IMG/VR virus record: IMGVR_UViG_3300048599_000868
Location: 1-38,203 of that record
Origin: a virus
Taxonomy: Duplodnaviria > Caudoviricetes
Strand: one strand, 5' to 3'
DNA: 38,203 nucleotides
Program-made: the position numbers and the translations under genes
The notes under the pieces: model-generated
The model's input: the letters and a program-made list of their open reading frames with translations, nothing else
Database searches by the model: none
What the model was told of the DNA's origin: nothing
Shown here: piece after piece, positions 8,185-36,865 of the stretch
How the letters are laid out: every line of letters starts with the position of its first letter
Position numbering within the stretch: position 1 is the stretch's first letter

Positions 8185-8283
8185 GAAACCTAAAAAACGA
8201 CCTTATTTGCTTTATTTTCAAGCTAAATGTCCACAGTCTTAATAGTATCAGTATTGCATAGATTCAGTTGAGGGCGAAATTTA

Positions 8284-9081
8284 TCACACGCTTACTATTG
8301 TAAGTGTTTTTCCATATGATCCGAGATTTATTATTTCTTCACTTGCCCATACAGAACTTCGGCATTCGAACCAGTCGGATAACCGAACATCTGTCTTTGT
8401 CACAATACCTGACGGGTGTGTCGAGGTATCACAAAGTGAAGCCGTACTAGTCTCCTTCGGTACTTTCCAACCCTTTCGAGGAAAAACCATTTCAGGTATG
8501 CGTTTCATCTTCTCGGACAAAAAACAGTAATCAATTACCCCATTTGAACTAACAATGATACCTATCTTTGTTTCTGCCAAAGTAACATAGCGTATTGCAG
8601 TAGATGTGAGTGATGTTTGGCATAATTCAGCCATTTTAGAAATTCCGTCATACCCTGGTTCATACTTCCATAGACAATTCCTGAACCAATCCTCTGGCAT
8701 CAGTAGATTTGAAGCGAATAAATCTGCTTGTCTTTCAAAAATATCACCAGTTGGATTTCCTGCTGATGACTTATGAATTTCTGAACTCGAGAACATGGAA
8801 TCAGTGTGTCCTTCGAGAAAAAAATGTCCAAGTTCATGTGCGATGCTAAAATGCTCATAACCCCGGTTATTCAAACGAACTGCATATGAAATCCCAAAAT
8901 TATTACCCGACATTAAAAGCATTCCCGAAACACCTTGTTCTTCCTGCTCCATAGGGAAAACAGAAATTTCGTTTTTCTTTGCGACAATAATAGGGTCAAC
9001 AGGAAAAGATTCTATTGAATTGTCCACAAGAACTCGTTTGGCTACTTGTGGAATTATAGAATCATCAAGTGTCTTTTTCAT
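8284..9081 (-). CDS. ImmA/IrrE-family zinc metallopeptidase (CapP-like)
   Basis: FSIAHELGH (HExxH), ERQADLFASNLLMP, TSLTSTAIRY; ATGA overlap with the upstream HTH gene. Confidence 0.9.
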   Translation of the reverse strand: MKKTLDDSIIPQVAKRVLVDNSIESFPVDPIIVAKKNEISVFPMEQEEQGVSGMLLMSGNNFGISYAVRLNNRGYEHFSIAHELGHFFLEGHTDSMFSSSEIHKSSAGNPTGDIFERQADLFASNLLMPEDWFRNCLWKYEPGYDGISKMAELCQTSLTSTAIRYVTLAETKIGIIVSSNGVIDYCFLSEKMKRIPEMVFPRKGWKVPKETSTASLCDTSTHPSGIVTKTDVRLSDWFECRSSVWASEEIINLGSYGKTLTIVSV

Positions 9082-9428
9082 TTGGTATTGGAGGAATTAC
9101 GTTCAGCAAGCATTTTTAAGAAACTTTCTGCAAGCTGTTTATCAGTATCTGTAAGATTACTGAAATCTCTGAATGCCGCATGCCCTTCAGGTCCGACCCC
9201 GGTATCGTCAGTCCTCCCCAATAGATAATCAGTTGTTACATCCAGAGCTATCGCCAATTTACGCAAATTTGCAAATGATGGCTTTCGATTTCCTGCTTCA
9301 AAATGTGCAATTGAGCTTGCAGGTAATCCTGCCTTCGTTCCTAAGTCGCCTTGCGTCAATTGTCGTAGTTCCCGAGCACTTTTCAACCGTATTGCGAATA
9401 AATCAGTATCATTTTCTTCAGAATTCAT
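9078..9428 (-). CDS. XRE-family HTH repressor (CapH-like)
   Basis: RLKSARELRQLTQGDLG..SSIAHFEAGNRKPS..LAIALDVTTDYLLG. Confidence 0.9.
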   Translation of the reverse strand: MNSEENDTDLFAIRLKSARELRQLTQGDLGTKAGLPASSIAHFEAGNRKPSFANLRKLAIALDVTTDYLLGRTDDTGVGPEGHAAFRDFSNLTDTDKQLAESFLKMLAERNSSNTK

Positions 9429-9527
9429 GTCGTTTCCGCCATATTAAACTTGACGCTTTATGCAAAACATCATTATATTGGTTTCAGAAGTGAAACTTCG
9501 ACAAGTATAATATGTCTTTAACGACAT
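9427..9527. promoter_or_regulatory. Divergent promoter region with candidate operators
   Basis: Plus-strand TTGACG (9450-9455)-N18-TATATT. Two near-copies of ATGTCG-N4-CGACAT (9427-9442, 9512-9527). Perfect GTTTCA-N4-TGAAAC (9481-9496). Confidence 0.55.
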
Positions 9528-9734
9528 TTCAAGTAAGAATTATGGAGAGAAAGGACATGGCAATTTCATTTATTACCTTTTTTTCGGTAGGCCGCAAAAA
9601 CAGCGGAATGTCACTGATCAAGCTTAGAAATTCAAAAGCCAGCACAATTCCGATCAATTGTGCCATCGGAGAAAATCTTGGCGCAGATTATTGCAATGTA
9701 AATATTAATTCATTTAACAATCAAAGGAGTCACT

Positions 9735-10544
9735 ATGAGATCTTCCGTTGAAGGAACAGCAATTTTTTTGGATATAAGAAATTTCACGAGTAATCTAAAC
9801 AACTTATTCACCGATGACTCATATCTCTCATTAATAGAAAAAGTTTATGAAAAAGGTATCGAATTAGGTATCGAATTTTGCTCTGAAAAAGAATTTTACA
9901 TAAATACAACAGGCGATGGTTTCCTGGCCATTTTCTTGGGTAAAGATAATTGCATTAATGCCTATTTCTATTCGTTATTGTTGCATCATTGCCTTAGTAA
10001 ATTATTCGTGGAGTATTTTAAGAGTGAGTTAATGACAGGCCAGTACTATTTCGGAATTGGTCTTGAATTTGGAGAAATGAAAAATGTCAGAACAAAGCAA
10101 ATAGACAAAGAAATTAATACATATCTCGGGAATGTAATCAATATTGCTGCAAGGCTTGAAGCGTTATCGAAGGATCACACGCGGTCCCCAATAATATTTG
10201 GCCCATGTCTTAATGAATGCTTAGTAAGAGAAATATTTGGAGAATGTTATACCGAGCTCATGGATCAAGCAAAAAAATCTGACAGTACAGAGAATGCCCA
10301 AGCACTCCATCAAAAAATGACCATGATTAATTCCAAATTACTATCTTCATACATATTTGAACATAAATTGAAGGGTGTTGATAGTCCTGTGCCTGTTTTC
10401 CGGGTATCACCAACTTTATTCAATATGGATACGAGTCACTTCAAAGATCTTGTTGGCTTACTACCAGATAATAAGATTAACAAAATACATGAAGTGCTAG
10501 ATAAACATTTGTGCAAAAAAGATACATATAAGGAGTGTCTATGA
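9735..10544 (+). CDS. Class III nucleotide cyclase (adenylate/guanylate cyclase fold; PycC-like candidate)
   Basis: FLDIRNFT, TTGDGFLAIF, FGIGLEFG and GNVINIAARLE contain both metal Asps and the Asn/Arg pair; AAGGAG SD. Confidence 0.85.
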   Translation: MRSSVEGTAIFLDIRNFTSNLNNLFTDDSYLSLIEKVYEKGIELGIEFCSEKEFYINTTGDGFLAIFLGKDNCINAYFYSLLLHHCLSKLFVEYFKSELMTGQYYFGIGLEFGEMKNVRTKQIDKEINTYLGNVINIAARLEALSKDHTRSPIIFGPCLNECLVREIFGECYTELMDQAKKSDSTENAQALHQKMTMINSKLLSSYIFEHKLKGVDSPVPVFRVSPTLFNMDTSHFKDLVGLLPDNKINKIHEVLDKHLCKKDTYKECL

Positions 10545-11470
10545 AACAAGTAATATTTAACGTGGGTGGTGCTCTGGCAAGTTATTTGGAATATGATAAC
10601 AAGAAAATACTAATTGATATTGGATCATGCAATTCCTTTAATCCCATCACAGATTTTTTAGTTCCGCTTTCTGAGAAAAGATCTGCTAAAACAAATAACA
10701 AGTTTAACATCGATCAGTTAATAATAAGCCATCCACATAACGATCATTTGTCTACAATTGAAGACTTTGATAAGTATTTTACTGCAGATCTTGTTACCTG
10801 TCCCAATGATAATCCAGGTCAAGAAGAAAAACACAAAGTGAAATGGAGTTTGGTTGATAATCCTTCAGAGGAATATGTGACATATTTACGGGATTCAATT
10901 CTTCCTGGACGCAAACCTCCACTTAAACCAACAAACCCAATTAATCAGTTTCTATATTATATTCCCCCCAAGGAATGTGAGGGTAATAATGATCTTGATG
11001 GAAAGAATTATACTAACAACCTGAGCGTTGCTTTCTATTTCAGAATTAATGGTTATAAACTTTTTATGCCGGGCGATTTGATGAAAGACGGAATGGAATA
11101 TTTAATCAAACACGAAAGCAGCCTGCGATCAAAGTTAGCCGAAGGAGTTGATATTCTGGTTACACCACATCATGGTTTAAAATCTTCATTTTCAACGTAT
11201 TTATTTGATCATATAAAAGATAAAAAAACCAGGTGTCTTAATATTGTGCCCGAGCAATCAACAAGTGAAGATAGTAACAGAATTGTTGATTCACGATACA
11301 GTAGCACAGAATACTGTATGGGTATTAACAATTTCAGTACAAGAGAATCTGTTGTTTGCCAGAAAAAAACTTCAACCGGACATATCTATATTGATTACAA
11401 CAAATCAAGTTATCCAGTAATCGAAGTTATCAACAACGACAAGGAGTTGATTAAGAGATTTGCTAATTAA
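10541..11470 (+). CDS. ComEC/Rec2-like metallo-beta-lactamase-fold hydrolase (soluble)
   Basis: FNVG, ILIDIG, SHPHNDH (HxHxDH), NNLS, PGD, PHHG; ATG 10541 overlaps the cyclase stop (ATGA) with AGGAG SD. Confidence 0.85.
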   Translation: MKQVIFNVGGALASYLEYDNKKILIDIGSCNSFNPITDFLVPLSEKRSAKTNNKFNIDQLIISHPHNDHLSTIEDFDKYFTADLVTCPNDNPGQEEKHKVKWSLVDNPSEEYVTYLRDSILPGRKPPLKPTNPINQFLYYIPPKECEGNNDLDGKNYTNNLSVAFYFRINGYKLFMPGDLMKDGMEYLIKHESSLRSKLAEGVDILVTPHHGLKSSFSTYLFDHIKDKKTRCLNIVPEQSTSEDSNRIVDSRYSSTEYCMGINNFSTRESVVCQKKTSTGHIYIDYNKSSYPVIEVINNDKELIKRFAN

Positions 11471-11530
11471 ATCGTACTGATATCAGTGGACAGATTATTT
11501 TCAATTAGGTTTGCCAGTTATCTGTCAAAC

Positions 11531-14077
11531 CTAATTACTCGATTCGACAGCAACCACGGTATCATACAGTCCATAACTAGTAAGTCCTTCATGACTATTA
11601 ATCCCCGTGTATCGTAGCGAGGCGTCTTCGTACCTTCTGAATGCAAATACCGCTTGATTCATCTGCTCTGTATTGAACACTTTAAGGCGAACGAGCAAAT
11701 GGAAATCATTCACATTAAGCCCTGTGACTGCTAGAAATAAATCAGGTTCTATTTTGGTAATAACATCTTGAAGTGTGTTTTCTCGAAAGTCAGTTAAATA
11801 CATGAAAGCCGGAATACGGGTAGCAAACTTGATAAGCCTCTCCTGTACAAGTTTACGTTTTGATTTGTACTCTTTTTCTTCCTCAGTAAGTTCTTTCTTA
11901 TCGGCGAAAGAAAGCTCCTTCTTCTTTGCTTTGTTTTTCAGTTTTTTTACTATATCGCTTTTATTGATGATTGTTTCGATTACATTATCACCGAGTGCTC
12001 GCCATCCTTCGATGCGTTCGACGGCTGCCATAGCATCAGGATTATCCATTATACGACGTAACGTGTCGTTGTCCACATTGACGAGTAACGCTGACTCCCA
12101 TTTTCGTGCCAAAAGAGTTGCGGATGTTCCAGCCATTGCGATATCAAGGATTCCTCCTGCGTCAATCTGCGTCATATTCGCGCCATCATAGGCAAGGACA
12201 GGTAGGAAAGAGACAAGGTCTTTTACTGCATTTTCAGGATTAAGCTCATTTGGTGAAAGTCCAATTCCATATTCGGAAAGTTGTCGGAGAGCTCTAGTCG
12301 GTGCAAAGTCGAACACAAAACAGGCTGGTTTAAGTATTTCTTCTTCATTCGGATTATCCCCATTGGGATTTTTGATTGACCATGGAGATTGTACGCGGAA
12401 AGCTGCTTGGAAATAAGTCTCGGGAGATTTTAGATTACGAAGCATTAAGATTGATGACCACTGCGGTACAGTCACGCCGGTTGTTAATTTGCCACATGAC
12501 AGCGTGATTGTCTTTGTCTCAAATCCGCTGCCGATCGCTTTTCGAACAGGCGGCAGTGCCTCCAATCCGATACCGGCAGAAATGCCTGCTGCGACGATGA
12601 CTGTATAATCGTGCCAAAAAGTATTATGCTTTTCTGCTAACAGGTTGGCCATTGCACGGCAAGAAGCGACGTTTGGCATAAACCAAAATGAATGTTGGAG
12701 GTATGGCAGTAACCGAACATCGGAATAGGGAAAAGGTGGGCGAGTTCCCGTCTTCAAGCTTTCGACGGCATTCGATGTATATGATCCCCTAATTATTTCC
12801 AGCCATTTTTGCACATCTCTCTTATATTTGAATTGTACATCAATACCAGTATCTTCGGCTGCGAAGAACTCGTTCAGATCGAACTCATCGAATTCTCCAG
12901 CGCTTGCGATTGTCACTAATTCATCCGGCATTTGGTAAGTTAATAGTCTCATCTGAGGAAGAGCGCCATAGGGATTTCTCTCGCTGGGATGTTCAGCCGC
13001 ATAATCTTCCTTGGCTCGTTGTTCGTCAGTATAGGTCCAGTTGAAAATTTGTTCTTCGATAAACTCACCGGTTGCCAGAGCTTTAAATGGCGTACCGGAT
13101 AGGTAGAGATAAGCCTTTGTTGTGATCGGGAGAAATTCCATTTCTTTCTCTGAAAGAACACTAAGGTCTTCATTAATTATATCCAAGTCGGCAGCGTACT
13201 CAATCTTTGCTTCTTTTTTTGCAGCCGCCTCATCTTCGCCTTCAAATAGCTCCTTTGATGTTTCCCTCCAAGCTCCAAAATGGTATTCATCAAAAACAAC
13301 CAGATCCCAATTTACTGTGTGTATCCATGTATTATTTGGTTTTATGTTTCCGGCATCGTCCCGACCAAGTAGATCTTGAAAAGAACCAAAATATACAACC
13401 GGTTTTTTGTTATCCACCTCTGTCGGATCCATTTCTGACTTACGGGATAAATATTGCCAACCATCGAAGTCAATATGGGACTCCAGGTCTGTCTGCCAGG
13501 CATCTTCAACAGCAGGTTTAAAGGTTACGACGAGTACTCGTTTTGCTCCTAATTTTCTAGCTAATTGATACGTGGTGAATGTTTTTCCGAAACGCATCTT
13601 AGCATTCCAGAGAAAACGTGGAGCTGATTTTTGGTTCTCTTTCCATATTGAGTAGTAATACTCAAAGGTCTTTTCAACGGCCTCAGCCTGCTCTTTGCGC
13701 ATAGGGAATGTTTCGTGATGGCTACCGGTATATCGCTTTCCAGTACGTAGTTCCGTAAGTACTGTTCGTACATCAGCGACAGAGCATTTCATCCATTCCA
13801 GTTCAGTATTTATAAATCCTTTCTTAACAAGAGCCGAACGAACCTGATGATCAGTTATTAGTGACCCGTCCAATCGTTCTGCTGATTCATCTAGTTCAAT
13901 TTTGTAATTCTTAATGGCAGCTGTTTTTACTTGCTCAGCAATTCGTTGCTTCACATCTCTTGTCGTCTGTCCAACTTTTAGAAGCCCTTGATGTGCTTTA
14001 TCATCTATTCTGTACGCGTAGATTCGCGGACTCACTTCCGGTTTACGTGCTAGAATATCATCAATCGATTTATTCAT
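11531..14077 (-). CDS. GIY-YIG nuclease fused to SF2 helicase (restriction subunit)
   Basis: IYAY..LLKVGQTTR..RI..E; Walker A-like AKMRFGKT; DEYH; SGT; QAAFRVQS; ATG 14077 overlaps the MTase end. Confidence 0.8.
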   Translation of the reverse strand: MNKSIDDILARKPEVSPRIYAYRIDDKAHQGLLKVGQTTRDVKQRIAEQVKTAAIKNYKIELDESAERLDGSLITDHQVRSALVKKGFINTELEWMKCSVADVRTVLTELRTGKRYTGSHHETFPMRKEQAEAVEKTFEYYYSIWKENQKSAPRFLWNAKMRFGKTFTTYQLARKLGAKRVLVVTFKPAVEDAWQTDLESHIDFDGWQYLSRKSEMDPTEVDNKKPVVYFGSFQDLLGRDDAGNIKPNNTWIHTVNWDLVVFDEYHFGAWRETSKELFEGEDEAAAKKEAKIEYAADLDIINEDLSVLSEKEMEFLPITTKAYLYLSGTPFKALATGEFIEEQIFNWTYTDEQRAKEDYAAEHPSERNPYGALPQMRLLTYQMPDELVTIASAGEFDEFDLNEFFAAEDTGIDVQFKYKRDVQKWLEIIRGSYTSNAVESLKTGTRPPFPYSDVRLLPYLQHSFWFMPNVASCRAMANLLAEKHNTFWHDYTVIVAAGISAGIGLEALPPVRKAIGSGFETKTITLSCGKLTTGVTVPQWSSILMLRNLKSPETYFQAAFRVQSPWSIKNPNGDNPNEEEILKPACFVFDFAPTRALRQLSEYGIGLSPNELNPENAVKDLVSFLPVLAYDGANMTQIDAGGILDIAMAGTSATLLARKWESALLVNVDNDTLRRIMDNPDAMAAVERIEGWRALGDNVIETIINKSDIVKKLKNKAKKKELSFADKKELTEEEKEYKSKRKLVQERLIKFATRIPAFMYLTDFRENTLQDVITKIEPDLFLAVTGLNVNDFHLLVRLKVFNTEQMNQAVFAFRRYEDASLRYTGINSHEGLTSYGLYDTVVAVESSN

Positions 14078-15725
14078 CATCATCTTCTTCAATAACTACA
14101 TCTTCATCATCAACATCACCTACAAGGTCCATTGGACGTACAACTTTTTCTATGAAGGCGATCTCATTTTCTGATAAACCATACTTCTTATAAAGGTCAA
14201 TATCATTCCACTGCTTTGTCCATATTTGTGTTGGGACAAATGTATAAACCTTCCGTGTTGTGTGCTGTGATGGCTTATGAAGTAAAATAAGTAAACGCGT
14301 TAGCCTACAGGACAGATAAGATAATACACTTTCTGCTTGGCTTTTCGTGTCAAATGGTCCTAGACAGAGATATGTCTCGGAGCAAATCGTTCCTGGTTCT
14401 CCTAAAAATGGAGTACTAAGGATTTTATGTGGATAAGTGTCCTTGTTGCCTGTTCCAGGAGCAGCTGCGCCAACATATACTTTCCAATTATCAATTAGAT
14501 TCATTCCTATGGTTATTGAGGATCTACTGATATATGCTTTACCGCCGTTTTGATACACAAGAATATCACCAGGGGATTTAGTCGCCTTTCCTTGAAAAAA
14601 AGTTCGGAGACCAAACGGTCTACTTGAACTGACTAGTTGATCGAATCGTTTATCTTCTGGTAATAAGAGTGAATTACTCTGTTCACTTTCAAATGCAATG
14701 ACTTTTTTTAGAATTGAAAGGCCTTCATTAAAACGGATAAATATATCTGCACCTTTCTCAAGAAGGGGACGTAAATCCGTTGAAGGCGCATCGTTTTTAA
14801 AATAAGTGTTGACTTTACAAAGACCGTGATTATCTCTGTCCCAAAGAAAGAAGCAAACACCTCCTTTAAGGCCTATTCCTGGAAAAACATCTGATGCATT
14901 TAAATAATCGTCTATAGAACGAATTCTATCATCACTGAGCATCGATTCTCTAAAGTCATCCAATCCTTTACCACCGGCAAACCATCTAGCAGGAATAATC
15001 ATAGATAAATAACGTGGTTCAAGATTTTTTGCTTGTTGTACGAATCGTTGGTAAATTGGCGCGGCACTTGTGCCATAGCCGCCATCTTCTAATTGGTATG
15101 GCGGATTACCGATAATAACATCAAATTGCATATTGTCTCCAAACATCTCATTTAGGTAAGTCTTGATATCATTAGTATGTATGAACGCATAGGCATGCGT
15201 CTCGAATCCTTCACCTCGCTCGAGACTTTTCTGACTTGCTCCGCAAAACGAACACTTACCGTCAACCCACTGATGCATAGTTCGTTCAAACCATATATTC
15301 CCGACATCTGTTGTAAATGACTTCGCAATAGAATGCTTCCCATTTGCATACTTTGAGCAGTACACACTGCGTCTTGCAAGTAGGCTTGTAAGTTTAGTTA
15401 TGCCTATTCCGTAAACCTGCTTAGTTAAAATATGATCGACACGGTCTTCAAGGGTAGGAATTTTATCAGTTAATCCGACTGTTAAACGTCTAGTTATCTC
15501 TCGTAAGAATACACCTGATTTTGTAAATGGATCTAGAAACTTGACTGTACTGTCTGCCCAGATATTTGCCCCTTTATGATCTTCAGCCCATGTATTAGTG
15601 AGTGTATCCAACATCTTGTTAGCAAATTCGGGAGGTGTAAAAACCTCGTCATTAGAAAGATTCGCAATACAGGTAAGCACGTCAGGATTACGTCCCCTGA
15701 GGGATATACTCACTTGTTCGCTCAT
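14070..15725 (-). CDS. Eco57I-like N6-adenine DNA methyltransferase / specificity protein
   Basis: EVFTPP, degenerate motif I FLDPFTKSGVF, motif IV GNPPY, C-terminal TRD-like region. Confidence 0.85.
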   Translation of the reverse strand: MSEQVSISLRGRNPDVLTCIANLSNDEVFTPPEFANKMLDTLTNTWAEDHKGANIWADSTVKFLDPFTKSGVFLREITRRLTVGLTDKIPTLEDRVDHILTKQVYGIGITKLTSLLARRSVYCSKYANGKHSIAKSFTTDVGNIWFERTMHQWVDGKCSFCGASQKSLERGEGFETHAYAFIHTNDIKTYLNEMFGDNMQFDVIIGNPPYQLEDGGYGTSAAPIYQRFVQQAKNLEPRYLSMIIPARWFAGGKGLDDFRESMLSDDRIRSIDDYLNASDVFPGIGLKGGVCFFLWDRDNHGLCKVNTYFKNDAPSTDLRPLLEKGADIFIRFNEGLSILKKVIAFESEQSNSLLLPEDKRFDQLVSSSRPFGLRTFFQGKATKSPGDILVYQNGGKAYISRSSITIGMNLIDNWKVYVGAAAPGTGNKDTYPHKILSTPFLGEPGTICSETYLCLGPFDTKSQAESVLSYLSCRLTRLLILLHKPSQHTTRKVYTFVPTQIWTKQWNDIDLYKKYGLSENEIAFIEKVVRPMDLVGDVDDEDVVIEEDDDE

Positions 15726-16393
15726 AGAGTATCCTTTGGCGAAATATTTGAATATATGGAGGCAAGGTCTTCTATTGACATTGGAGGATACGTCTTTGTT
15801 GGTGTAAATATTTCATGTTTCCCGAGATCAGCAAAGAGACTATCCTGTTCACCAAAGGAAGACATTTGCGTAAGCGAGTCAAAACGGAAATCTCTGCGTT
15901 GAAACTTTCCTTTACCAAGATAGCCCCACTCTGCAAAGGTGATGGGATCTCCATGAGGTGTCTTCATAGTGAGAGCATCACCCTGCACAATATTCTGTGA
16001 TAAAACGAAGGATGCAGCTCTGTATAATGAATCCGCCTCGCCAAGATGTAGGTAGTCGGAAAAGATCTCGAGTATGTTTTCACGGCATTCAACAATGTTA
16101 TCAGCTAGTAATTCGATGCCGTATGCGCTCATCAAGGCAAGAAGGGCATAATGCTGTTTCTCGAAGTCTGATTTACCATATTTTATCTCGACGGCAGCTA
16201 GCTTCCGTTTAAGTATCTGTACAAGAAAGTTACCGCTTCCACATGCCGGTTCCAAGAATCGGGAGTCAATACGCTCTGTCTCGTCTTTGACCAGATCAAG
16301 CATCGCCTCAACCATCCAAGCCGGTGTAAAAACTTCACCATGATCAGCGACACGCTGTTTTGATTTTACAAGTCTATCGGGTTCTTCATTCAT
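15722..16393 (-). CDS. Small SAM-binding methyltransferase-like subunit
   Basis: HGEVFTP, FLEPACGSGNF (motif I), YGIEL; no NPPY motif. Confidence 0.8.
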   Translation of the reverse strand: MNEEPDRLVKSKQRVADHGEVFTPAWMVEAMLDLVKDETERIDSRFLEPACGSGNFLVQILKRKLAAVEIKYGKSDFEKQHYALLALMSAYGIELLADNIVECRENILEIFSDYLHLGEADSLYRAASFVLSQNIVQGDALTMKTPHGDPITFAEWGYLGKGKFQRRDFRFDSLTQMSSFGEQDSLFADLGKHEIFTPTKTYPPMSIEDLASIYSNISPKDTL

Positions 16394-16707
16394 ATTTTTG
16401 TTAAAAACACTCCAAATAGCAAAAAATATACATTGTTTTAGTAGGAATACATATATAGAATTGAAAACTCTACTTCCTCTTAGTATATCACTCTTCGGTT
16501 TCCTTTTGTGGTGTTTCTATATCCCATAATCATTATTTGATGGAGACCTCATCACGTTCGATACAAAAACGTTTTCGAACTGGCAGAAGGTAGCTAAATA
16601 TCAATTAATTGTTTGGAATTGAAAAAAGCCTAAGCATGATAAGTCTTCAAATCTTATCGTAATTTGAAAAATAACCAATCGTGGCTCATATTCAATTTTC
16701 ACATATA

Positions 16708-17256
16708 CTACTCATTCCAATCCCAAAATTCCAAAGCTTCCTCAGCCTCACCATCCCCTTCATTAAATGCTTTCAGAAGCCAAAATCTTGCCATGCCGCG
16801 ATTAGGCGGACGATCTGCGCTACCGTCATAGTACCTTTCTGCTAAATTGAAAAATGCGTCATAACATCCAGCTTCTGCTGCAGAAAGAAGAAGAGAAAAA
16901 CCTTTTTTTTCATTTCGCGAACATCCACAACCCATTAAAAAAAGTTTTGCCAAATGCACCTTTCCTTGTAAATCGTTTTGATTGCACGACTTACTATACC
17001 AATGGAAAGCCTTTAGACTGTTTTGTGGAGTACCACAACCATATTGATAACATGCTCCAAGGCGCCATTGAGCCTCAGAATTACCATAACGCGCTGAGAG
17101 AGTATAATAATGAACAGCATTTTCAAGGTTCTTTTCCGTTCCTACTCCACAGAAATAACAGTAACCAATTAACAAGAGTAGATCAGGACTCTTCGTATCT
17201 AGACTTTGTAAGAACAACTGAGCATCACATTCCTGAATGTCTTTTTCATTTCTCAT
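16708..17256 (-). CDS. Sel1-like repeat protein
   Basis: Repeated G..Y..G.G...N...A..WY..SA..G...AQ units. Confidence 0.9.
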   Translation of the reverse strand: MRNEKDIQECDAQLFLQSLDTKSPDLLLLIGYCYFCGVGTEKNLENAVHYYTLSARYGNSEAQWRLGACYQYGCGTPQNSLKAFHWYSKSCNQNDLQGKVHLAKLFLMGCGCSRNEKKGFSLLLSAAEAGCYDAFFNLAERYYDGSADRPPNRGMARFWLLKAFNEGDGEAEEALEFWDWNE

Positions 17257-17315
17257 AATTCATCCCTTTTGGTAGTTACAATCCTATTGTAGGTTAAGAT
17301 TAACTTGCCATACCG

Positions 17316-17336
17316 CCGTGTCATATATGGACACGG
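17316..17336. promoter_or_regulatory. Perfect palindrome CCGTGTC-N7-GACACGG, candidate WYL-regulator operator
   Basis: Lies in the divergent Sel1/LRR intergenic region; same core as 20910-20932. Confidence 0.65.
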
Positions 17337-17380
17337 TAGGAATTGCGTTACTAATTGATGATTATTCATGGCTATTCATG

Positions 17381-17399
17381 TGTATCCGATTCTGACACA
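17381..17399. promoter_or_regulatory. Imperfect second operator TGTATC-N7-GACACA
   Basis: One mismatch to GTGTC-N7-GACAC; ~34 nt upstream of the LRR gene. Confidence 0.5.
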
Positions 17400-17432
17400 T
17401 CTCAAGGTTACTCTGATTAAGGGAGGGTAACT

Positions 17433-18536
17433 ATGGAAATTGATGGCACAACACTCATAATAACGGATGCAAGAGAAAGATTCGATACGGATACCCTTAA
17501 TAGACCCGATACAAACTCGAAAAATAAAATATGCCAGAAAATAAAAAAAGTAATGATCGGTAAATCGTTGTCAGTCCTCCAGTCGTATGATGGAAATCCA
17601 GATCCTTTCAATGAATACTCCAATCTTGAGAGGATTACAGTATCACCTGAGAATATGGTGTTTCGTGATATTGACGGTGTACTCTTCACAAAAGATGGAA
17701 CAAGACTCATTACGTTTCCTGACTGTCATTCATCGGAATATATCATACCTGATTCTGTTATTCACATAGAGAGATCTGCATTTGATTATGCAAAAAAACT
17801 TGAAACAATTACGTTTGGAAAGAACGTGAAGACTATCGGCCTTGCTGCTTTTTTCCATTGCGTGAAGCTCAAAAGCGTCTGTCTCCCAGCGGGGTTAATA
17901 TCGATAGGTCCAGGAGCATTCTCATTCTGTTCAAGCCTCAAGGATCTGGAACTCCCCGCCAGTATAGAAGAAATCGGACATTCCTTATTTTATGAATGTT
18001 CATCTCTTCAAAGAGTATCAATGATTAATGATACGGGGCAAAAGTTTCGAACTACCGAAGGTGTGGTTTTTGAGTCAACTACAAACACCCTAGTTCGCGT
18101 TCCTCCGGGGTATCCAGCTCCAGTGTATGCTATTCCTCCAGATACAGTTATTATCGATGATTATGCATTTGCTAACTGCAATAATCTCGAGGAAATAATT
18201 ATCCCTGCCTCAGTTTCTATAATTAGCGGAACGTCACTTACGATGACTACGAATCTTCAGCGATTTACCGTATACAAACAAAATCGCTTTTTCTGCGATA
18301 TTGACGGGGTCCTTTTCAGTAAGGATAAAAAAAGGCTTATTGCGTATCCAGGTGGAAGATATGGTTCCTATGCAGTACCTGACTTTGTTCAGGAGCTCGG
18401 TGATTTTTGCTTTTTTAGTGTGATATTTGTCAAAAAAAACTTGAGTGTAACTATCCCGAATGAAGGGTCCATCAAAAAAGGTTTATCGATATTCAATCCA
18501 AAAACAGAACTTAAGGAGGAAGGAGAGGAGTCGTAG
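17433..18536 (+). CDS. BspA-family (TpLRR) leucine-rich repeat protein
   Basis: Repeats IP.SV..I...AF..C..L..I and DIDGVLF(T/S)KD..RLI..P; GGAGG SD; no obvious signal peptide. Confidence 0.9.
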   Translation: MEIDGTTLIITDARERFDTDTLNRPDTNSKNKICQKIKKVMIGKSLSVLQSYDGNPDPFNEYSNLERITVSPENMVFRDIDGVLFTKDGTRLITFPDCHSSEYIIPDSVIHIERSAFDYAKKLETITFGKNVKTIGLAAFFHCVKLKSVCLPAGLISIGPGAFSFCSSLKDLELPASIEEIGHSLFYECSSLQRVSMINDTGQKFRTTEGVVFESTTNTLVRVPPGYPAPVYAIPPDTVIIDDYAFANCNNLEEIIIPASVSIISGTSLTMTTNLQRFTVYKQNRFFCDIDGVLFSKDKKRLIAYPGGRYGSYAVPDFVQELGDFCFFSVIFVKKNLSVTIPNEGSIKKGLSIFNPKTELKEEGEES

Positions 18537-18553
18537 AAGATATAATATAAGGT

Positions 18554-18997
18554 TTATGCGTGTATCATTGACATAAGGGAGTCCGCTTTTGAGAATAATT
18601 TGAAATAGATTTCATCATGTCTGAATCGATCGTCAAACTCCCCCTTTTCTCCAACGTTAAAAGAAGAGTGGAATACATTCCGGTTAAAATCTTTAGGATA
18701 GATTAAATACTCTGATAAGCTATCTGAATACTGACCTGCCGTAAGATCGAAGACAATGTCCTCACATTCGCCCCAAACATGCGATCCAGTCGATTCACGA
18801 TTTCCAAGCACCCAGTAAACGGGCCAATGCCCCATTCGTTCTAGCGTGATTGCCGCGAAATATGTTGAATAAAAGCAACAGTCCTTGGGGAATGCTCTAA
18901 AAAATGGATCTTCCTCGGTTTTGTTTTCATGAAGGAAGAAGTAGATTTTTTTAAGTATTGATAACAAAGAAAGCTGTATCTCTTTTTCTCGAGACAC
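18554..18997 (-). CDS. Hypothetical protein with papain/transglutaminase-like Cys-His-Asp pattern
   Basis: FPKDCC...SHVWGE...FDLTAGQ; the GTG 18997 start is chosen to avoid overlap and is uncertain. Confidence 0.5.
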   Translation of the reverse strand: MSREKEIQLSLLSILKKIYFFLHENKTEEDPFFRAFPKDCCFYSTYFAAITLERMGHWPVYWVLGNRESTGSHVWGECEDIVFDLTAGQYSDSLSEYLIYPKDFNRNVFHSSFNVGEKGEFDDRFRHDEIYFKLFSKADSLMSMIHA

Positions 18998-19016
18998 AGC
19001 CCTATCTCTTGTTTTA

Positions 19017-19319
19017 TCAACCAGCACGTTCGCTAAGCTTCTTGCAGTTCTCATCATACGTCTGGATCCAGCTTCCATGTTTTACCGTAAACGTAGATCC
19101 TGAAGCCCCTCTTACCACCCTGTCAGAAGAGGGCATCTCTGCTATCTTTTTACAGTTAGCGTCATAGGTCTGTATCCATGAGCCGTGTAGAACGACAAAA
19201 AAGTCTGAAGCTACACCTACGACTTCTTTTCCCGATGAAGGCATTTCACTAATCTTCTTTCCAGACTCATTGAATACCTGATACCAACTACCCTTAAGCG
19301 AAACATCAGAGATCTCCAT
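19017..19319 (-). CDS. 100-aa protein built of three internal beta-rich repeats
   Basis: GSWYQVFNESGKKISE / GSWIQTYDANCKKIAE / GSWIQTYDENCKKLSE; GGAGG SD before ATG 19319. Confidence 0.75.
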   Translation of the reverse strand: MEISDVSLKGSWYQVFNESGKKISEMPSSGKEVVGVASDFFVVLHGSWIQTYDANCKKIAEMPSSDRVVRGASGSTFTVKHGSWIQTYDENCKKLSERAG

Positions 19320-19358
19320 AATAACCTCCATACATATTGATACCCCATACGGGGTCAC

Positions 19359-20381
19359 TTATTGATGCGAATAACGTCCAGCAATCCTTGCTATATCACC
19401 CATTAGTTCATCCCGGAGCCAGCCGGGTTCGAGTAGTTCGGCGGACTGCCCAAAGCCGAGAAGCCATTTCTTCAACTCGTAACCCCCAGCTGTTTCAATC
19501 TTGAGGATAATTGAACCATCTTCAAGCTCCTCTATTTCAGTGCCTTCAGGCCAATCCCTTTCCTGGATGTATCGTGCCTGATCCTCATCAAACTGAATGC
19601 GCGCAATAAACGGTTCTTCGCTTAATACAATCCCGAATGGATCTGAGAGTCGTTTTTCAGCGTCATAACCTTCGGGTATCTCGAAGTGCTCATCCGAAAT
19701 CTGTATTGTTTGAATGCGTTCAAGGGCAAGGATGATAACTTTTTCATAGTAGGGTTGAAAAACAAACACATAGAGTCCACCGTTATGTTCAAAGATCGTA
19801 AGCGGATGGATCTGATACGTCCGAATTGCACCGGATGAAAAAGATTCATAGGCTACGACGCAAACGTGCTTTTCCCTTATTGCTTTCAGAATATCATGAA
19901 CAATCTGATTCTGATTCACGCTCTCTTTCTTCCCGACAGGGACATCCATTATGATTGTCGGTCTTGACGTAATTGTCTTACTTGGGCCATGCTCTTTTTC
20001 TGCGATTGAATAGCCATAATCCGCGATCGCCATGGCGAGTTTTTTCCTGAGTGATCCGGCTTGTTTTGCTAGAGAAGGTGTGTCGGCTATTTTTCTGAAA
20101 ATGTAATCGAGCAGGACATGGTCCTCAACGTCAAAGGTCATGGTTGGCAACGGCTGCCAATACCGCATCTTGTCGAGCTCTTTATTCAGGTAATATCGTG
20201 CTTCCTTTCCATCCATATCGGGATAAAGAAGATACCCAAGCTCGTCCAGCGCCTCAAAAAGCCGGTATACTGTCTTCCGGCTCACTTCTAGATGGTCCAT
20301 GAGTTCTTTAATGCTCGCGCCTTGTGGTCGGGCAATAAGCCGCGCCCCGGTTAAAAGCTGAACCACCTGATGGTACATCAT
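19359..20381 (-). CDS. HTH-WYL-WCX transcriptional regulator
   Basis: N-terminal wHTH (SIKELMDHLEVSRKTVYR); WYL region (IHPLTIFEHNGGLYV..LALERI); WCX (ELKKWLLGFGQSAELLEP..LR). Confidence 0.9.
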   Translation of the reverse strand: MMYHQVVQLLTGARLIARPQGASIKELMDHLEVSRKTVYRLFEALDELGYLLYPDMDGKEARYYLNKELDKMRYWQPLPTMTFDVEDHVLLDYIFRKIADTPSLAKQAGSLRKKLAMAIADYGYSIAEKEHGPSKTITSRPTIIMDVPVGKKESVNQNQIVHDILKAIREKHVCVVAYESFSSGAIRTYQIHPLTIFEHNGGLYVFVFQPYYEKVIILALERIQTIQISDEHFEIPEGYDAEKRLSDPFGIVLSEEPFIARIQFDEDQARYIQERDWPEGTEIEELEDGSIILKIETAGGYELKKWLLGFGQSAELLEPGWLRDELMGDIARIAGRYSHQ

Positions 20382-20890
20382 GTATTTGCCTCAATAAATA
20401 TCTTCGCGCACGCTAACGCATCACTTAATGCTTCGTGATGTGTCAAATCGATTCCAAGAAAATCGCTTACGGTATCAAGCCGATGATTTTCAAGCTCCGG
20501 CCACTTTCTGCGCGAGAACTGCACAGTGCATTCAAATCGTGGCACTGTATACTCTATTCCGTAGTAATCTAGGCAGTATTCTAATACGCTTTGGTCAAAA
20601 TTTGAGTTGTGCGCAACAAGGAAGTCATCACCGATGAACTCCCGGATCTTTGGCCATATCTCCCTAAAATCAGGAGCTATCTCGACGTCATCCATTGTAA
20701 TTCCATGGATATCGGTAAAAGAAGGGATTATGTCCATACCATCAGGTGGTTTGATTAACGTATAAAAATCCTCAACAACAATGCCATTGCGAATACGAAT
20801 CAACCCAACCGCGCAGGCACTTGCCCGCTGATAACAAGCGGTTTCAAAATCTATTGCACAAAAGTTTAAACCATTTTTTTTGTTGTTCAT
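20378..20890 (-). CDS. DEDDh 3'-5' exonuclease (DnaQ/PolIII epsilon-like)
   Basis: AIDFET, VAHNSNFD, HHEALSDA; ATGA overlap with the WYL gene. Confidence 0.92.
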   Translation of the reverse strand: MNNKKNGLNFCAIDFETACYQRASACAVGLIRIRNGIVVEDFYTLIKPPDGMDIIPSFTDIHGITMDDVEIAPDFREIWPKIREFIGDDFLVAHNSNFDQSVLEYCLDYYGIEYTVPRFECTVQFSRRKWPELENHRLDTVSDFLGIDLTHHEALSDALACAKIFIEANT

Positions 20891-20909
20891 AGTTATATCA
20901 TAATATCAT

Positions 20910-20932
20910 TGTGTGTCATAAACAGACACACA
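20910..20932. promoter_or_regulatory. Perfect palindrome TGTGTGTC-N7-GACACACA upstream of the exonuclease-WYL operon
   Basis: Lies 20 nt upstream of the exonuclease ATG; a TATGAT -10-like hexamer sits 6 nt before the ATG with no SD (possible leaderless mRNA). Confidence 0.7.
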
Positions 20933-21158
20933 TAAGACTTCACCACGTACTTTCTTAAAACATAATTGCAACCCTTTCTGTAAATCCCAATAATCATTTA
21001 CGAATAATACAATTCCCTAAAACAAGGTTTCAGATTTAGCATACTACTCATTTGATTAATAATTCAGGTCAGAATAGCATTTAGAGATATACAAACGGAA
21101 GGTCCAAAAAGCTTCTCATGTAGATCTTTCATTTTATTCCTCACTGGTGTTATCCTGA

Positions 21159-23489
21159 TCACTGGGTTAATAGTTTAGAAATAATACTTCTCCCTAATTC
21201 AATTCTATCTTCACTGTCAATCCCCATGCTCTGTGAAATAGGATATTCAATTTTTTGGTCTTTTTGAAAACAAACATACTTATCATTCTGACATAATATT
21301 TCGTAATCAGTATTTGCTATTTTCAACTTGTCGCCTTGATATGCATAATCACCTAGTAATAATTTCCCTGAAAACTCAGGTGATTTATATAATGTATATA
21401 GGAAAATATTCCAGTTTTTACCGCCCATACTTTTTTCAGTATTCATCATAATTATATTGTAATTCTTAATATTTCTAGCTTCCCAATAATACATCCCGAA
21501 ATTGCTTTGTCTCATTGGTTCGTATTTAATCAAATAGTAACGCCAGTCTTTTTGTGTTTCTTTAGCTTCAAGATATTTACTAATATAATTCTCTAAGTAA
21601 TTGTCATTTATATCTGATTCTTCAAGAGTAGATAAAAGTTTATTTAGAACAATAAAAGTATTGTCAAAAGAGAGCCTTTGCTTTGTGGGGTGAAATAAAT
21701 CGAACCAAACAGAGTCATTGTATCTTGCGCCCAACTGGAAACGCCATGAAATAAATTGAGAATAATCGCTAAAAGTTAATAGAATTCTACTAATGTGGTC
21801 CTTTTTACAGTTATTGAATAAAAGTCTGAATTTCAGAAAGTTACTACTGTTGTCCAAATCCACAATTGCTATACATCCTTTCAATAACAAATGGTCTTCT
21901 AATTGATACATTTCTTCTTTTTTGTCTGGATTAGCAACCAGCCATGTGATCTTATTTTGTTCTTCCTCCTTCTGCCTAGTGTTATAACCAAGACCTCCAC
22001 CCTCAGAAAGAGGAATTACTCCAGAAAGAATAATTGCTTCAGTTTCTACTAACAATGTTTTCATGCGATCATCACGAATCTCATCAGTAGAATTCCATAT
22101 TAAATTTCGTATTATTCTTATTCTTTTACGAAATTGCACATCGGAAATGGTCGCTTTATGTTGAAGATAAGTGACAATGGCGTAAAGCAACAACATCTTA
22201 CTTAATGGGAACTTTCTGTTTCTGCCGGAATACTCTCCGTAATTGTTAAGGCATTCTTTGAAGATGTTTACATCTTCTTGATATATCATTACTTTATCAA
22301 CTTGATATTCATTTTTAGAAAAAATGTCTTCAAAAAAACCAAGAATGTTCATCTTATACCAACAATCAAAAGATTGAATGAAATATTGAATATTTTCTTT
22401 TGACTTCTCATTTATATAACCAACCGATTTGAGCTTATCAAACAACTCTTTGTATACGGTTGTATCTAGTTTATTTTTACTGACAAAATGTGTGTCGACA
22501 TTGTTATAATGTTTTAAAATAAAGTCTGTATCTATATTTACACATTCAGCTGATTCAATAATATCGGGAATATAACCATATAACCACCGAGCTACCATAA
22601 ATTCATCTCTTCTCAATTCAAGCCCAGATTTATAAGAAATAATATCACTAATAAAATGAAAATAACGCATAAACTCATCATCAATAATATTATTGTCACC
22701 ACGGAAAGGGAACAGCATATCTGTCCAATTAATATCAAATTTATGATTAATTTCTTTTGAAAGATCCTCTGAGACATGCTTAATAATCTCTTCAAACTCA
22801 GCTTTAAAATGTTCAAAAGGTGTTAAAGGTTTTCCTCTAGAGTTCATCTTAATATATAGATCATCCGTAAGTCCCATTTCTGTAAGTGGGAGAAAATAGA
22901 AGCTAATAATTTCGCCTGTAATCAATGTTTCCCATAATCCTGATTGATCTTTAAACTTCTTATGAATTGCATCAATCATTACCAGCATGCTCTGTATAGT
23001 AGGATCATTTTTCCATTCATAAGGATACCAGGACTGATCTTTTATGGCGTCAGATAGTTTCTCGGCACAAAATTCGACCGAATATTTTACCAACTCTTGG
23101 CAAAAATCACGTGAACTAAATCGAGTAGCATAGGAGAAAGAAATCAGAAAAATATATTCAGCTTCATCAATTTTCTCTTTTTTTGCAATGTACCAATACA
23201 ATAGAAATAGTGTTGTTAATCGCTGTTGTCCATCAAGAGGGGTTAGAACTCCACTGTTAGAAACATCACCGTATACGAAATCCAAAGTGATATGACTTTT
23301 ATTAACGATAGCATTAAACAAGGCATCTAAAAAACGTTCTCTAATTCTTTTTACCTCGTCATTTGTTCTGCCTTGCGCATAATCCCTTTGAATAATTGGA
23401 ATTTCGATTTTGTTTAATGTAATACTATTCCCTTCATACTCAAAAGTGCTACCAAAAAGATTTCGAAATGTATATTCTCTTGTGTTCAT
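21159..23489 (-). CDS. DUF262 (GmrS-like) domain protein, 776 aa
   Basis: IPIIQRDYAQG, DGQQR, KMNSRGKPLT; no clear HNH motif in the C-terminus. Confidence 0.85.
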   Translation of the reverse strand: MNTREYTFRNLFGSTFEYEGNSITLNKIEIPIIQRDYAQGRTNDEVKRIRERFLDALFNAIVNKSHITLDFVYGDVSNSGVLTPLDGQQRLTTLFLLYWYIAKKEKIDEAEYIFLISFSYATRFSSRDFCQELVKYSVEFCAEKLSDAIKDQSWYPYEWKNDPTIQSMLVMIDAIHKKFKDQSGLWETLITGEIISFYFLPLTEMGLTDDLYIKMNSRGKPLTPFEHFKAEFEEIIKHVSEDLSKEINHKFDINWTDMLFPFRGDNNIIDDEFMRYFHFISDIISYKSGLELRRDEFMVARWLYGYIPDIIESAECVNIDTDFILKHYNNVDTHFVSKNKLDTTVYKELFDKLKSVGYINEKSKENIQYFIQSFDCWYKMNILGFFEDIFSKNEYQVDKVMIYQEDVNIFKECLNNYGEYSGRNRKFPLSKMLLLYAIVTYLQHKATISDVQFRKRIRIIRNLIWNSTDEIRDDRMKTLLVETEAIILSGVIPLSEGGGLGYNTRQKEEEQNKITWLVANPDKKEEMYQLEDHLLLKGCIAIVDLDNSSNFLKFRLLFNNCKKDHISRILLTFSDYSQFISWRFQLGARYNDSVWFDLFHPTKQRLSFDNTFIVLNKLLSTLEESDINDNYLENYISKYLEAKETQKDWRYYLIKYEPMRQSNFGMYYWEARNIKNYNIIMMNTEKSMGGKNWNIFLYTLYKSPEFSGKLLLGDYAYQGDKLKIANTDYEILCQNDKYVCFQKDQKIEYPISQSMGIDSEDRIELGRSIISKLLTQ

Positions 23490-25195: not shown

Positions 25196-25280
25196 TAATT
25201 CACACCACCGACTAGCGAATGGTAAAATTAGTTTTCTCTTCGATTTTCTGTTTTAACCTTTCTTTACCTTCGAAGCGTAC

Positions 25281-25329
25281 ATTGTTGCAAAACTTTCCGA
25301 GCAAAGCGACTAGTAAGTTTTGTTACAAT
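25281..25329. repeat. Intergenic inverted repeat (15-bp arms, 2 mismatches)
   Basis: ATTGTTGCAAAACTT ... AAGTTTTGTTACAAT. Confidence 0.6.
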
Positions 25330-25350
25330 ATTAAAATCAGGTCGAAGCAC

Positions 25351-26163: not shown

Positions 26164-26359
26164 ATTTTCCTTTTCTCTGCGCGAGCAGCGTCCATCGAAC
26201 ACATTAATAGCGTGTTTTCTATATTAATTTATTATGGTAAATATTTTTTACTATAAGCTTTCAACAATGCAATATTTCTATCGTATTAATTATTTAAAAA
26301 AAGTATAGCACTAATTGTTTGAAAGTGTGTTTTTATTTATTGAAAAAATCTCAGTATTA

Positions 26360-36739: not shown

Positions 36740-36755
36740 ATCGCTTGTATCCACT

Positions 36756-36790
36756 AAAACTCCACTCACAAGGTTTACGAGTGGAGTTTT
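36756..36790. promoter_or_regulatory. Perfect 12-bp inverted repeat, probable AbiEi operator
   Basis: AAAACTCCACTC-N11-GAGTGGAGTTTT just upstream of abiEi. Confidence 0.7.
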
Positions 36791-36865
36791 CATGCAATCA
36801 GTATATCGCCCTTCGGGTATACCCGCAAGGGCCAATGAAGCATATTTTCTCATCTGCGCTAACCC

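What the first reader, a model, noticed from the sequence alone, without database searches (positions are those of the whole stretch)
8284..11470. Candidate new nucleotide-signalling defence system: class III cyclase plus ComEC-like MBL hydrolase under CapH/CapP-like control
Seen: a soluble class III cyclase with intact catalytic motifs is coupled by an ATGA overlap (10541-10544) to a soluble MBL-fold protein (HxHxDH, GD, PHHG). An XRE-HTH and ImmA/IrrE peptidase pair is transcribed divergently, all inside a defence-rich cargo. Known: CapH/CapP pairs sit divergently from CBASS and other defence operons and respond to DNA damage; classical Pycsar pairs a class III cyclase with a TM or TIR effector; MBL folds occur both as defence nucleases and as cNMP phosphodiesterases (Apyc1). 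No TM, TIR or cNMP-binding effector is visible here. Inference, three options: (a) a Pycsar-like system with a cNMP-activated MBL effector; (b) a toxic cyclase restrained by an MBL phosphodiesterase; (c) a decoy system in which a constitutive signal holds the MBL inactive.
Basis: partly seen in the sequence, partly recalled or inferred. Interest (0 to 1): 0.88.

Follow-up and report, generated by a model that had tools for sequence, protein, structure and literature searches.

The report
Cyclase-gated nuclease pair in prophage cargo
A prophage carries a rare nucleotide cyclase gene joined to a DNase-like hydrolase gene, a pairing that recurs with four different hydrolase subfamilies and likely forms an undescribed anti-phage system in which the cyclase's product would keep the hydrolase switched off, while giant phages carry the cyclase alone.

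Summary
The four genes, the motifs, the ATGA overlap and the divergent capH/capP pair are present. The cyclase belongs to a distinct, rare class III family. It keeps the catalytic D/D/N/R set, has Asn where adenylyl cyclases have Lys, and lacks the N-terminal helix of PycC. In 11 of 16 distinct non-phage loci it sits beside an MBL hydrolase, from four subfamilies and in either order; 9 of the 11 overlap or abut. It co-diverges with its commonest partner. The window's MBL is ComEC-like (Z 22.6), not Apyc1-like (Z 10.0). No TM, TIR or trypsin-type partner is present. Intact orphan cyclases occur in five cellular loci and form a phage clade that includes 483- and 635-kb phages. The one orphan found of the main MBL partner has lost its metal ligands. 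This argues against a toxic cyclase and slightly favours a guard in which the cyclic nucleotide represses the nuclease (0.35) over Pycsar-like activation (0.27). Against: two intact window-type MBLs occur without a cyclase, capH/capP was seen only here, and nothing is tested biochemically. My literature searches found no description of the pair.

The parts
8284..9081 (-). capP-like Zn metallopeptidase (265 aa; H82-E83-x-x-H86, E116; no Cys between them, so no cysteine switch)
   Evidence: PADLOC capP E 2.5e-56; Pfam Peptidase_M78; sequence
9078..9428 (-). capH-like XRE helix-turn-helix repressor (116 aa), overlapping capP by 4 nt
   Evidence: PADLOC capH E 5.9e-26; Pfam HTH_3
9427..9455 (.). 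left arm of a 29-nt inverted repeat, covering the capH start codon and a -35-like TTGACG; candidate CapH operator (inferred)
   Evidence: 23 of 29 matches, 0 of 300 shuffles reach it
9499..9527 (.). right arm of the inverted repeat, with a perfect ATGTC-N6-GACAT palindrome (9512-9527), overlapping -10-like boxes of both strands; candidate CapH operator (inferred)
9450..9532 (.). overlapping sigma70-like promoter matches: + 9450-9479, + 9483-9511, - 9532-9504, each 10 of 12
   Evidence: consensus matches only; not enriched over shuffles
9735..10544 (+). divergent stand-alone class III nucleotide cyclase (269 aa; D13, D61, N136, R140, T129; N57 at the adenylyl-cyclase Lys position; helical insert about 157-201; no N-terminal helix)
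10541..11470 (+). ComEC/Pce-type MBL-fold hydrolase (309 aa; H64, H66, D68, H69, N160, D179, H210, H211), predicted nuclease or phosphodiesterase

Best explanation
The cyclase and MBL genes form a recurring two-gene module that is likely an anti-phage system, in which the cyclase is predicted to make a cyclic mononucleotide that would hold a ComEC-like nuclease inactive until phage infection depletes it. Shown: the pairing, its recurrence with four MBL subfamilies, both folds, intact active-site residues, restriction-modification neighbourhoods, orphan intact cyclases in cells and in large phages, and one orphan MBL with lost metal ligands. Inferred: the product (probably a purine 3',5'-cNMP, since the adenylyl-cyclase Thr is kept; the base is uncertain), that the MBL cuts DNA, that the nucleotide binds at or near the MBL active site as an inhibitor, that cNMP-degrading or cNMP-sequestering phage proteins are the trigger, and that phage copies act as orphan antitoxins. 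In this prophage a CapH/CapP pair has probably been added locally to raise expression after DNA damage.
For: Linkage: 11 of 16 distinct non-phage loci have an adjacent MBL; 9 of the 11 overlap or abut. Cyclases paired with the window-type MBL are not one clade (AU p 5e-8), so partners were swapped, gained or lost repeatedly; partners only 25-29% identical, or less, argue for a small-molecule link rather than a fixed interface. Asymmetry: 5 of 16 cellular loci hold an intact cyclase without an adjacent MBL, and one of them nests inside the MBL-paired clade (95/84), whereas the only 350-type MBL found in 401 Spirochaetota genomes has no family cyclase in its assembly and has lost H77, H79, H82 and H268. 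Six phage or phage-like cyclases form a clade (100/99), keep D/D/N/R and have no adjacent MBL; phages are known to carry orphan antitoxin-like enzymes (PMC11825919, passages). The MBL fold is ComEC (Z 22.6, rmsd 3.2, 243 aligned) rather than Apyc1 (Z 10.0, rmsd 4.5, 205 aligned); characterised defence MBLs with ComEC homology are latent DNases (10.1101/2025.11.14.688446 and 10.1101/2025.09.03.673762, passages). Repression by a constitutive nucleotide has precedent in Panoptes (PMC13712596, passages).
Against: Window-type MBLs with intact motifs occur without any family cyclase on two viral fragments (L152, 8.6 kb; L153, 9.9 kb), and this MBL family is far larger (213 hits) than the close cyclase family (28 hits). 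A nuclease that needs the cyclase product to stay off should not be free-standing unless host cNMP does the job. The dead orphan MBL is a single case in an incomplete assembly and deviates at 22 of 100 conserved columns, so plain decay after partner loss explains it equally under an activating model. A DNA-damage-inducible promoter suits an activating system better than a constitutive guard. No ligand site was located on the MBL. One phage that carries the cyclase also carries an RNase Z/Apyc1-like MBL. In genome samples only 1 of 5 cyclase-positive genomes has the pair. No activity was measured.
Confidence: 0.35

Rival explanations
1. Pycsar-like activation: infection or CapP-driven induction turns the cyclase on, and its cyclic nucleotide activates a latent MBL nuclease, taking the place of the protease that licenses related defence MBLs.
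For: Most cyclase-effector defence systems activate (PMC13712596 passages; 10.64898/2026.08.12.744502 parts 1-2 of 9). CapH/CapP induce CBASS after DNA damage (10.1101/2022.04.27.489752, passages). The 355-aa partner scores best to PDC-M48B and LmuA profiles (E 1.7e-45, 1.3e-35) and has a cyclase beside it in L071 and L181. The cyclase has a conserved helical insert that could sense a trigger. Orphan MBLs and orphan cyclases would both be harmless.
Against: No cNMP-binding or other sensor domain in any of the four MBL types scanned; an allosteric site would have to exist in four divergent subfamilies. Phages carrying an active signal-maker would risk triggering the system.
Confidence: 0.27
2. 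The MBL is a self-contained defence hydrolase with its own trigger, and the cyclase is an accessory gene that shares defence hotspots and only modulates it.
For: Intact solo window-type MBLs (L152, L153); family-size gap of 213 against 28; 0 contig-length matches for 71 more distant 350-type MBLs; the cyclase also follows a PDC-M71 kinase-TPR pair or stands alone.
Against: Repeated tight coupling to MBL-fold genes of four subfamilies in both orders, and co-divergence with one of them, are hard to get from hotspot sharing alone.
Confidence: 0.17
3. Two-step nucleotide drain or signal timer: the cyclase converts an NTP to cNMP and the MBL hydrolyses it to NMP, either depleting the NTP during infection or ending a signal meant for an unlinked receptor.
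For: Any MBL phosphodiesterase could serve, which fits the partner swapping; no receptor would be needed; MBL-fold cNMP phosphodiesterases exist (PMC9117128, passages).
Against: The fold is ComEC/Pce-like, far from Apyc1 (Z 10.0) and yeast PDE1 (Z 10.7); the cyclase alone would already consume NTP, yet intact orphans persist.
Confidence: 0.13
4. Toxic cyclase restrained by an MBL phosphodiesterase antitoxin.
For: Tight translational coupling as in toxin-antitoxin pairs; the MBL gene is first in the 350- and 355-aa loci.
Against: Catalytically intact cyclases without an adjacent MBL in 5 of 16 cellular loci and 6 of 6 phage-clade loci; no window-type MBL found elsewhere in G001, G002, G844 or G948, which may be incomplete.
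Confidence: 0.05

Closest known systems
Pycsar (PycC + PycTIR/PycTM) and Pucsar (PucC, cGMP)
   Same: Stand-alone class III cyclase with the two catalytic Asp in a two-gene, defence-island operon; weak PADLOC PycC hits (best E 3e-8).
   Different: No TIR-CNBD or TM effector; no N-terminal PycC helix; base-pocket residues match neither family; structurally no closer to PycC (Z 14.6-16.1) than to housekeeping cyclases (CyaB Z 19.3). The Pucsar preprint's survey of immune cyclases has no occurrence of MBL or lactamase in its main text (supplements closed).
Panoptes (OptS/OptE) and related decoy-nucleotide guards
   Same: The proposed logic: a constitutive nucleotide represses a toxic effector until phage proteins remove it (PMC13712596, passages).
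   Different: Different synthase (class III cyclase, predicted mononucleotide product, against mCpol cyclic di- or trinucleotides) and a soluble MBL hydrolase instead of a membrane effector. The logic is inferred here, not shown.
Protease-activated MBL nucleases (HamMAB, Avs-associated MBL, 6A-MBL, DRT- and Lamassu-associated MBL) and PADLOC PDC-M48B
   Same: ComEC/Pce-like MBL fold with intact metal motifs; weak profile hits (PDC-M48B 6e-15, LmuA 5e-10, 6A-MBL 6e-7).
   Different: No trypsin-, caspase- or subtilisin-type partner in the window; scores far below cut-offs (6A-MBL 29 against 220 bits; Avs1a 24 against 420); the partner is a cyclase.
CapH/CapP regulators of CBASS and other immune operons
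   Same: XRE repressor plus IrrE-like peptidase next to a candidate immune operon; strong PADLOC capH and capP hits.
   Different: Controls a cyclase-MBL pair; no cysteine switch (present in 33% of CapP according to 10.1101/2022.04.27.489752); not seen at other loci of this family.
Apyc1 (MBL-fold cNMP phosphodiesterase)
   Same: MBL fold, HxHxDH.
   Different: Different MBL subgroup (Z 10.0 against 22.6 for ComEC); no PF23023 hit for the window protein.

Membership tests
Pycsar | Class III cyclase fold with two metal-binding Asp | tested here: met
   D13 and D61 invariant; fold
Pycsar | N-terminal alpha helix called a hallmark of PycC (PMC11224242, passage) | tested here: not met
   Model starts with strand 4-14; family median 13 residues up to the first Asp
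Pycsar | Adjacent PycTIR (CNBD-TIR) or PycTM effector | tested here: not met
   Neighbours are MBL, capH/capP and an RM helicase; no TM segment in either protein
Pycsar | Pyrimidine-selecting residues (EaPycC F100/R142/Q144; BcPycC Y50/D94/R97) | tested here: inconclusive
   By offset from the catalytic Asp pair of EaPycC the window has F11/N57/T59: one of three agrees; mapped by motif spacing, not by superposition
Pycsar | Makes cCMP or cUMP on infection | not testable with these tools
   Needs biochemistry
Pucsar | CNBD-TIR or 3TM effector | tested here: not met
Pucsar | Glu/Lys guanine-recognition pair at the positions of the adenylyl-cyclase Lys/Asp | tested here: not met
   N57 and T129 at these positions; T129 aligned to bPAC, N57 placed by spacing from the GD motif (spacing recalled)
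Panoptes | mCpol synthase | tested here: inconclusive
   Best matches are class III cyclases (Z 19.3) above GGDEF domains (Z up to 12.5); no mCpol row is listed, which does not exclude one
Panoptes | Transmembrane effector (OptE or CARF-TM) | tested here: not met
   Partner is a soluble MBL
Panoptes | Constitutive signal represses the effector | not testable with these tools
   Only indirect orphan-gene asymmetry
Protease-activated MBL nuclease modules | ComEC/Pce-like MBL fold with metal ligands | tested here: met
Protease-activated MBL nuclease modules | Adjacent trypsin-, caspase- or subtilisin-like protease | tested here: not met
   None among 42 window ORFs scanned; the only peptidase in the cargo near the pair is CapP
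Protease-activated MBL nuclease modules | Inhibitory loops over the active site | not tested
   Model coordinates were not examined
6A-MBL / Avs1a | Curated profile cut-off | tested here: not met
   29 against 220 bits; 24.3 against 420 bits
Apyc1 | PF23023 match and class II phosphodiesterase-like structure | tested here: not met
   No PF23023 hit at E 0.01; 7u2r ranks 43rd, Z 10.0
CapH/CapP | XRE HTH repressor plus HExxH IrrE-like peptidase next to an immune operon | tested here: met
   capH 5.9e-26, capP 2.5e-56; HELGH motif; the operon's immune role is itself inferred
CapH/CapP | ssDNA-stimulated cleavage of CapH and de-repression | not testable with these tools
   Candidate operator repeats only

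The most novel reading that the evidence does not exclude
A guard against anti-Pycsar evasion: a new class III cyclase family keeps a ComEC-like DNase blocked with a cyclic mononucleotide, phage cNMP phosphodiesterases or sponges release it, and megaphages have captured the cyclase as an orphan antitoxin that tops the signal up. This would be a nucleotide-gated MBL nuclease and a phage counter-defence that works by synthesising the repressing signal.
Probability: 0.2. Interest if true: 0.88.

Novelty: new variant of a known kind. Interest (0 to 1): 0.68.

Why it matters
The characterised defence MBL nucleases I read about are switched on by proteases, and the characterised class III immune cyclases signal to TIR or membrane effectors. 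A cyclase that repeatedly recruits MBL hydrolases points to a third kind of wiring. The two-gene unit makes a direct test possible of whether cyclic mononucleotides can act as repressing decoys, and whether an orphan cyclase on 480-635 kb phages is a counter-defence. The unusual base pocket may also yield an unexpected product.

Tried and rejected
Complex prediction of cyclase with MBL gave no verdict (score 0.00) and is used neither way. Window-type MBL: not found in 301 Spirochaetota or 401 genomes of a second phylum, that of the Mesoflavibacter locus L027, nor in the annotated phage set; only distant MBLs on plasmids. 350-type MBL: 1 of 401 and 0 of 231 genomes, none in viral contigs or plasmids. 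The distant cyclase clade (P0183 group) gave no locus, so its neighbours are unknown; 10 more distant representatives showed no contig-length match to the MBL lists by eye. A degenerate DNA scan of viral contigs gave 10 loci, none with either protein. No RNA holder listed; contigs of 4 runs covered the phage flank and parts of capP/capH, and only one run had depth over cyclase-MBL; not used as evidence. The ATGTC-N6-GACAT pattern at up to 2 mismatches is not enriched in the window (21 against 17.1 expected); only the 29-nt repeat is significant. The viral structure library gave only ordinary cyclases. The ESM Atlas gave only generic cyclase and MBL clusters. The one-clade test for 350-type partners did not finish. 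68 of 70 loci and 59 of 80 were dropped as ordinary class III cyclases (partial matches, E 4e-12 or weaker); 2 of them were viewed as controls. Rejected: frameshift or artefact (both ORFs have many full-length homologues); fused single gene (separate stop, start and RBS); membership of Pycsar, Pucsar, Panoptes, Apyc1 or 6A-MBL. Literature: 10 searches; the combinations MBL + adenylate cyclase + anti-phage + Pycsar, class III cyclase + jumbo phage + MBL, and Apyc1 + guard + class III + nuclease effector returned 0 papers. Subscription journals and bioRxiv supplements (for example Table S1 of the Pucsar preprint) were not visible and could list this family.
Full report
Setting. The window is a 38.2-kb provirus record with an integrase, an AbiE pair, terminase, portal and capsid on the right and a D5-type primase on the left. 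Between the head genes and the left-hand phage genes lies a low-GC cargo of about 18-19 kb with an Eco57I-like methylase and ResIII helicase, a WYL regulator with a DEDDh exonuclease, and two GmrSD-domain genes. The finding is the left end of this cargo.

Observation. All stated features are present. capH and capP hit the PADLOC profiles strongly. The cyclase has no Pfam or NCBIfam hit at E 0.01 and only weak PycC hits, but its model (pLDDT 91) is a class III cyclase: CyaB Z 19.3, uridylate and cytidylate cyclases Z 14.6-16.1, GGDEF domains 12.5 or less. The MBL model (pLDDT 93.6) is closest to the ComEC nuclease domain (Z 22.6) and Pce (Z 21), well above RNase J (15.4) and Apyc1 (10.0).

The cyclase family. 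A word-indexed search gave 28 hits; a profile search of 50%-identity representatives gave 61 at E 1e-30. The family signature is DIRNF, xSTGDG, GIGxExG, TYxGxxINxAAR and a C-terminal LKG after a helical insert. D/D/N/R is intact in 105 of 108 aligned rows, some of them duplicates. The position four residues before the second Asp is Asn in 66 of 108 rows; adenylyl cyclases have Lys there (recalled), while the adenine-contacting Thr aligns to T129 and is kept in 93 of 108. The pattern matches neither the PycC residues in PMC11224242 (passages) nor the PucC Glu/Lys pair. The N-terminal helix that PMC11224242 calls a PycC hallmark is absent. The product is unknown; a purine cNMP is my guess.

Partners. 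From I kept the 2 of 70 and 21 of 80 loci that match at family level, and added 3 from genome samples. Without the phage clade, and merging cyclases over 95% identical, there are 16 loci including the window. Eleven have an adjacent MBL: window type downstream (window, L085), 350-aa type upstream (L073-L076, L078), 255-aa type downstream (L073, L082, L084) and 355-aa type upstream (L071, L181). Nine of 11 overlap or abut; the others are 4 and 23 nt apart. The types share 25-29% identity or less. A restriction-modification gene lies within three genes in 6 of 11. Identities of 13 cyclase and 350-type pairs correlate (rho 0.76, p 2e-4), which shows shared history, not function. Cyclases with window-type MBLs are not one clade (AU p 5e-8; 4 of the 6 labels come from contig lengths, and I had seen a FastTree first), and the window's cyclase lies in a supported 16-row clade in which the 350 type is commonest. 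The window's MBL is therefore probably a replacement partner.

Orphans. Five of 16 cellular loci have an intact cyclase and no adjacent MBL: two after metK in Spirochaetota, one after a PDC-M71 kinase-TPR pair, two in G844 and G948. Among genome hits only 1 of 5 is paired. Six further cyclases form a clade (100/99): four on viral records, including LR745206.1 (634,780 bp) and a 483-kb contig 98% complete, and two on metagenome contigs that I judge phage-like from gene content and 22-26% GC. None has an adjacent MBL; 4 of 5 viral records have no PF00753 match, and the fifth has a distant RNase Z/Apyc1-like MBL about 46 kb away, below the Apyc1 cut-off. On the MBL side, the single 350-type gene found in 401 genomes has no family cyclase in its assembly and has lost four conserved histidines; it is the only one of 46 near-full-length close relatives lacking the motifs, but it also deviates widely (22 of 100 conserved columns). 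Against a strict dependence, two window-type MBLs with intact motifs stand without a cyclase on short viral fragments, and that family has at least 213 members.

Regulation. The intergenic region holds promoter-like sites on both strands and a significant 29-nt inverted repeat that overlaps them, as expected for a CapH operator (inference). CapH/CapP induce CBASS after DNA damage, and basal expression was enough for defence (10.1101/2022.04.27.489752, passages; 10.64898/2026.05.16.725639, part 1 of 3). No other locus screened had a capP hit; L078-L080 have an XRE-peptidase fusion two genes upstream. I read capH/capP as a local addition.

Mechanism. A harmless, often orphaned cyclase, a nuclease-type MBL without a protease, interchangeable MBL partners without a sensor domain, one dead orphan MBL and phage capture of the cyclase fit together best if the cyclase product represses the MBL (0.35). 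Free-standing MBLs would then have to rely on host cNMP, which is unshown. Activation in the Pycsar manner (0.27), an autonomous MBL with an accessory cyclase (0.17), a nucleotide drain or timer (0.13) and a toxic cyclase (0.05) follow. Summed over these, a functional cyclase-MBL defence module is roughly 0.7 to 0.75 likely.

Literature seen. Passages only: PMC13069673, 10.1101/2025.09.30.679545, 10.1101/2022.04.27.489752, 10.1101/2025.11.14.688446, 10.1101/2025.09.03.673762, PMC9117128, PMC11224242, PMC13712596, PMC11825919, PMC13640721. Parts 1-2 of 9 plus a term search: 10.64898/2026.08.12.744502. Part 1 of 3: 10.64898/2026.05.16.725639. Other titles were seen as search listings only. None of the passages describes a class III cyclase paired with an MBL; the two MBL preprints have 0 occurrences of 'cyclase'. 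No supplements were read, and they may list the family. The metal-ligand roles of N160, D179 and H211 are recalled from Pce and come from no call.

Verdict. Real, recurrent and not found in print by my searches: a new variant of nucleotide-signalling defence with an unresolved sign of control. Interest 0.68.

Noticed in passing
window 8200-27000: A low-GC cargo of about 18-19 kb sits between the head genes and the remaining phage genes of the provirus, either a defence hotspot or a disrupted prophage.
   Followed up: partly
window 11531-16393 (-): Three-gene restriction-modification-like unit: small methylase-domain gene, Eco57I-like methylase and ResIII helicase, convergent on the MBL.
   Followed up: partly
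window 19359-20890 (-): DEDDh exonuclease coupled to an HTH-WYL-WCX regulator, a second candidate DNA-damage-responsive regulator in the same cargo.
   Followed up: no
window 21159-25195 (-): Two overlapping GmrSD (DUF262-type) genes of 569 and 776 aa.
   Followed up: no
window 35229-36853 (-): AbiEi/AbiEii pair directly after the integrase.
   Followed up: no
window 16708-18536: Sel1-repeat and BspA-type leucine-rich-repeat genes inside the cargo; 25351-26202, 26360-26755 and 18554-19078 have no family hit.
   Followed up: no
L155 5977-6714; L157/L158 5983-6708; L156; L159; L086-L091: A phage clade of the same cyclase family, with intact catalytic residues and no partner, on phages up to 635 kb.
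   Followed up: partly
L001 5974-6765; L002 3586-4377; L077: Orphan cyclases directly after metK in Spirochaetota MAGs, with STGD changed to SKGD; possibly domesticated with altered specificity.
   Followed up: partly
L081 1243-4522; L083: The cyclase is translationally coupled behind a PDC-M71 kinase-TPR pair, inside a type I restriction-modification locus.
   Followed up: partly
L073 1-1921: One cyclase flanked by two different MBL types, 350-aa upstream and 255-aa downstream: a possible partner swap in progress.
   Followed up: partly
L164 1393-2235 (G712): RNase Z/Apyc1-like MBL on a phage that also carries the cyclase; PF23023 score 27 bits, below the cut-off of 50.
   Followed up: partly
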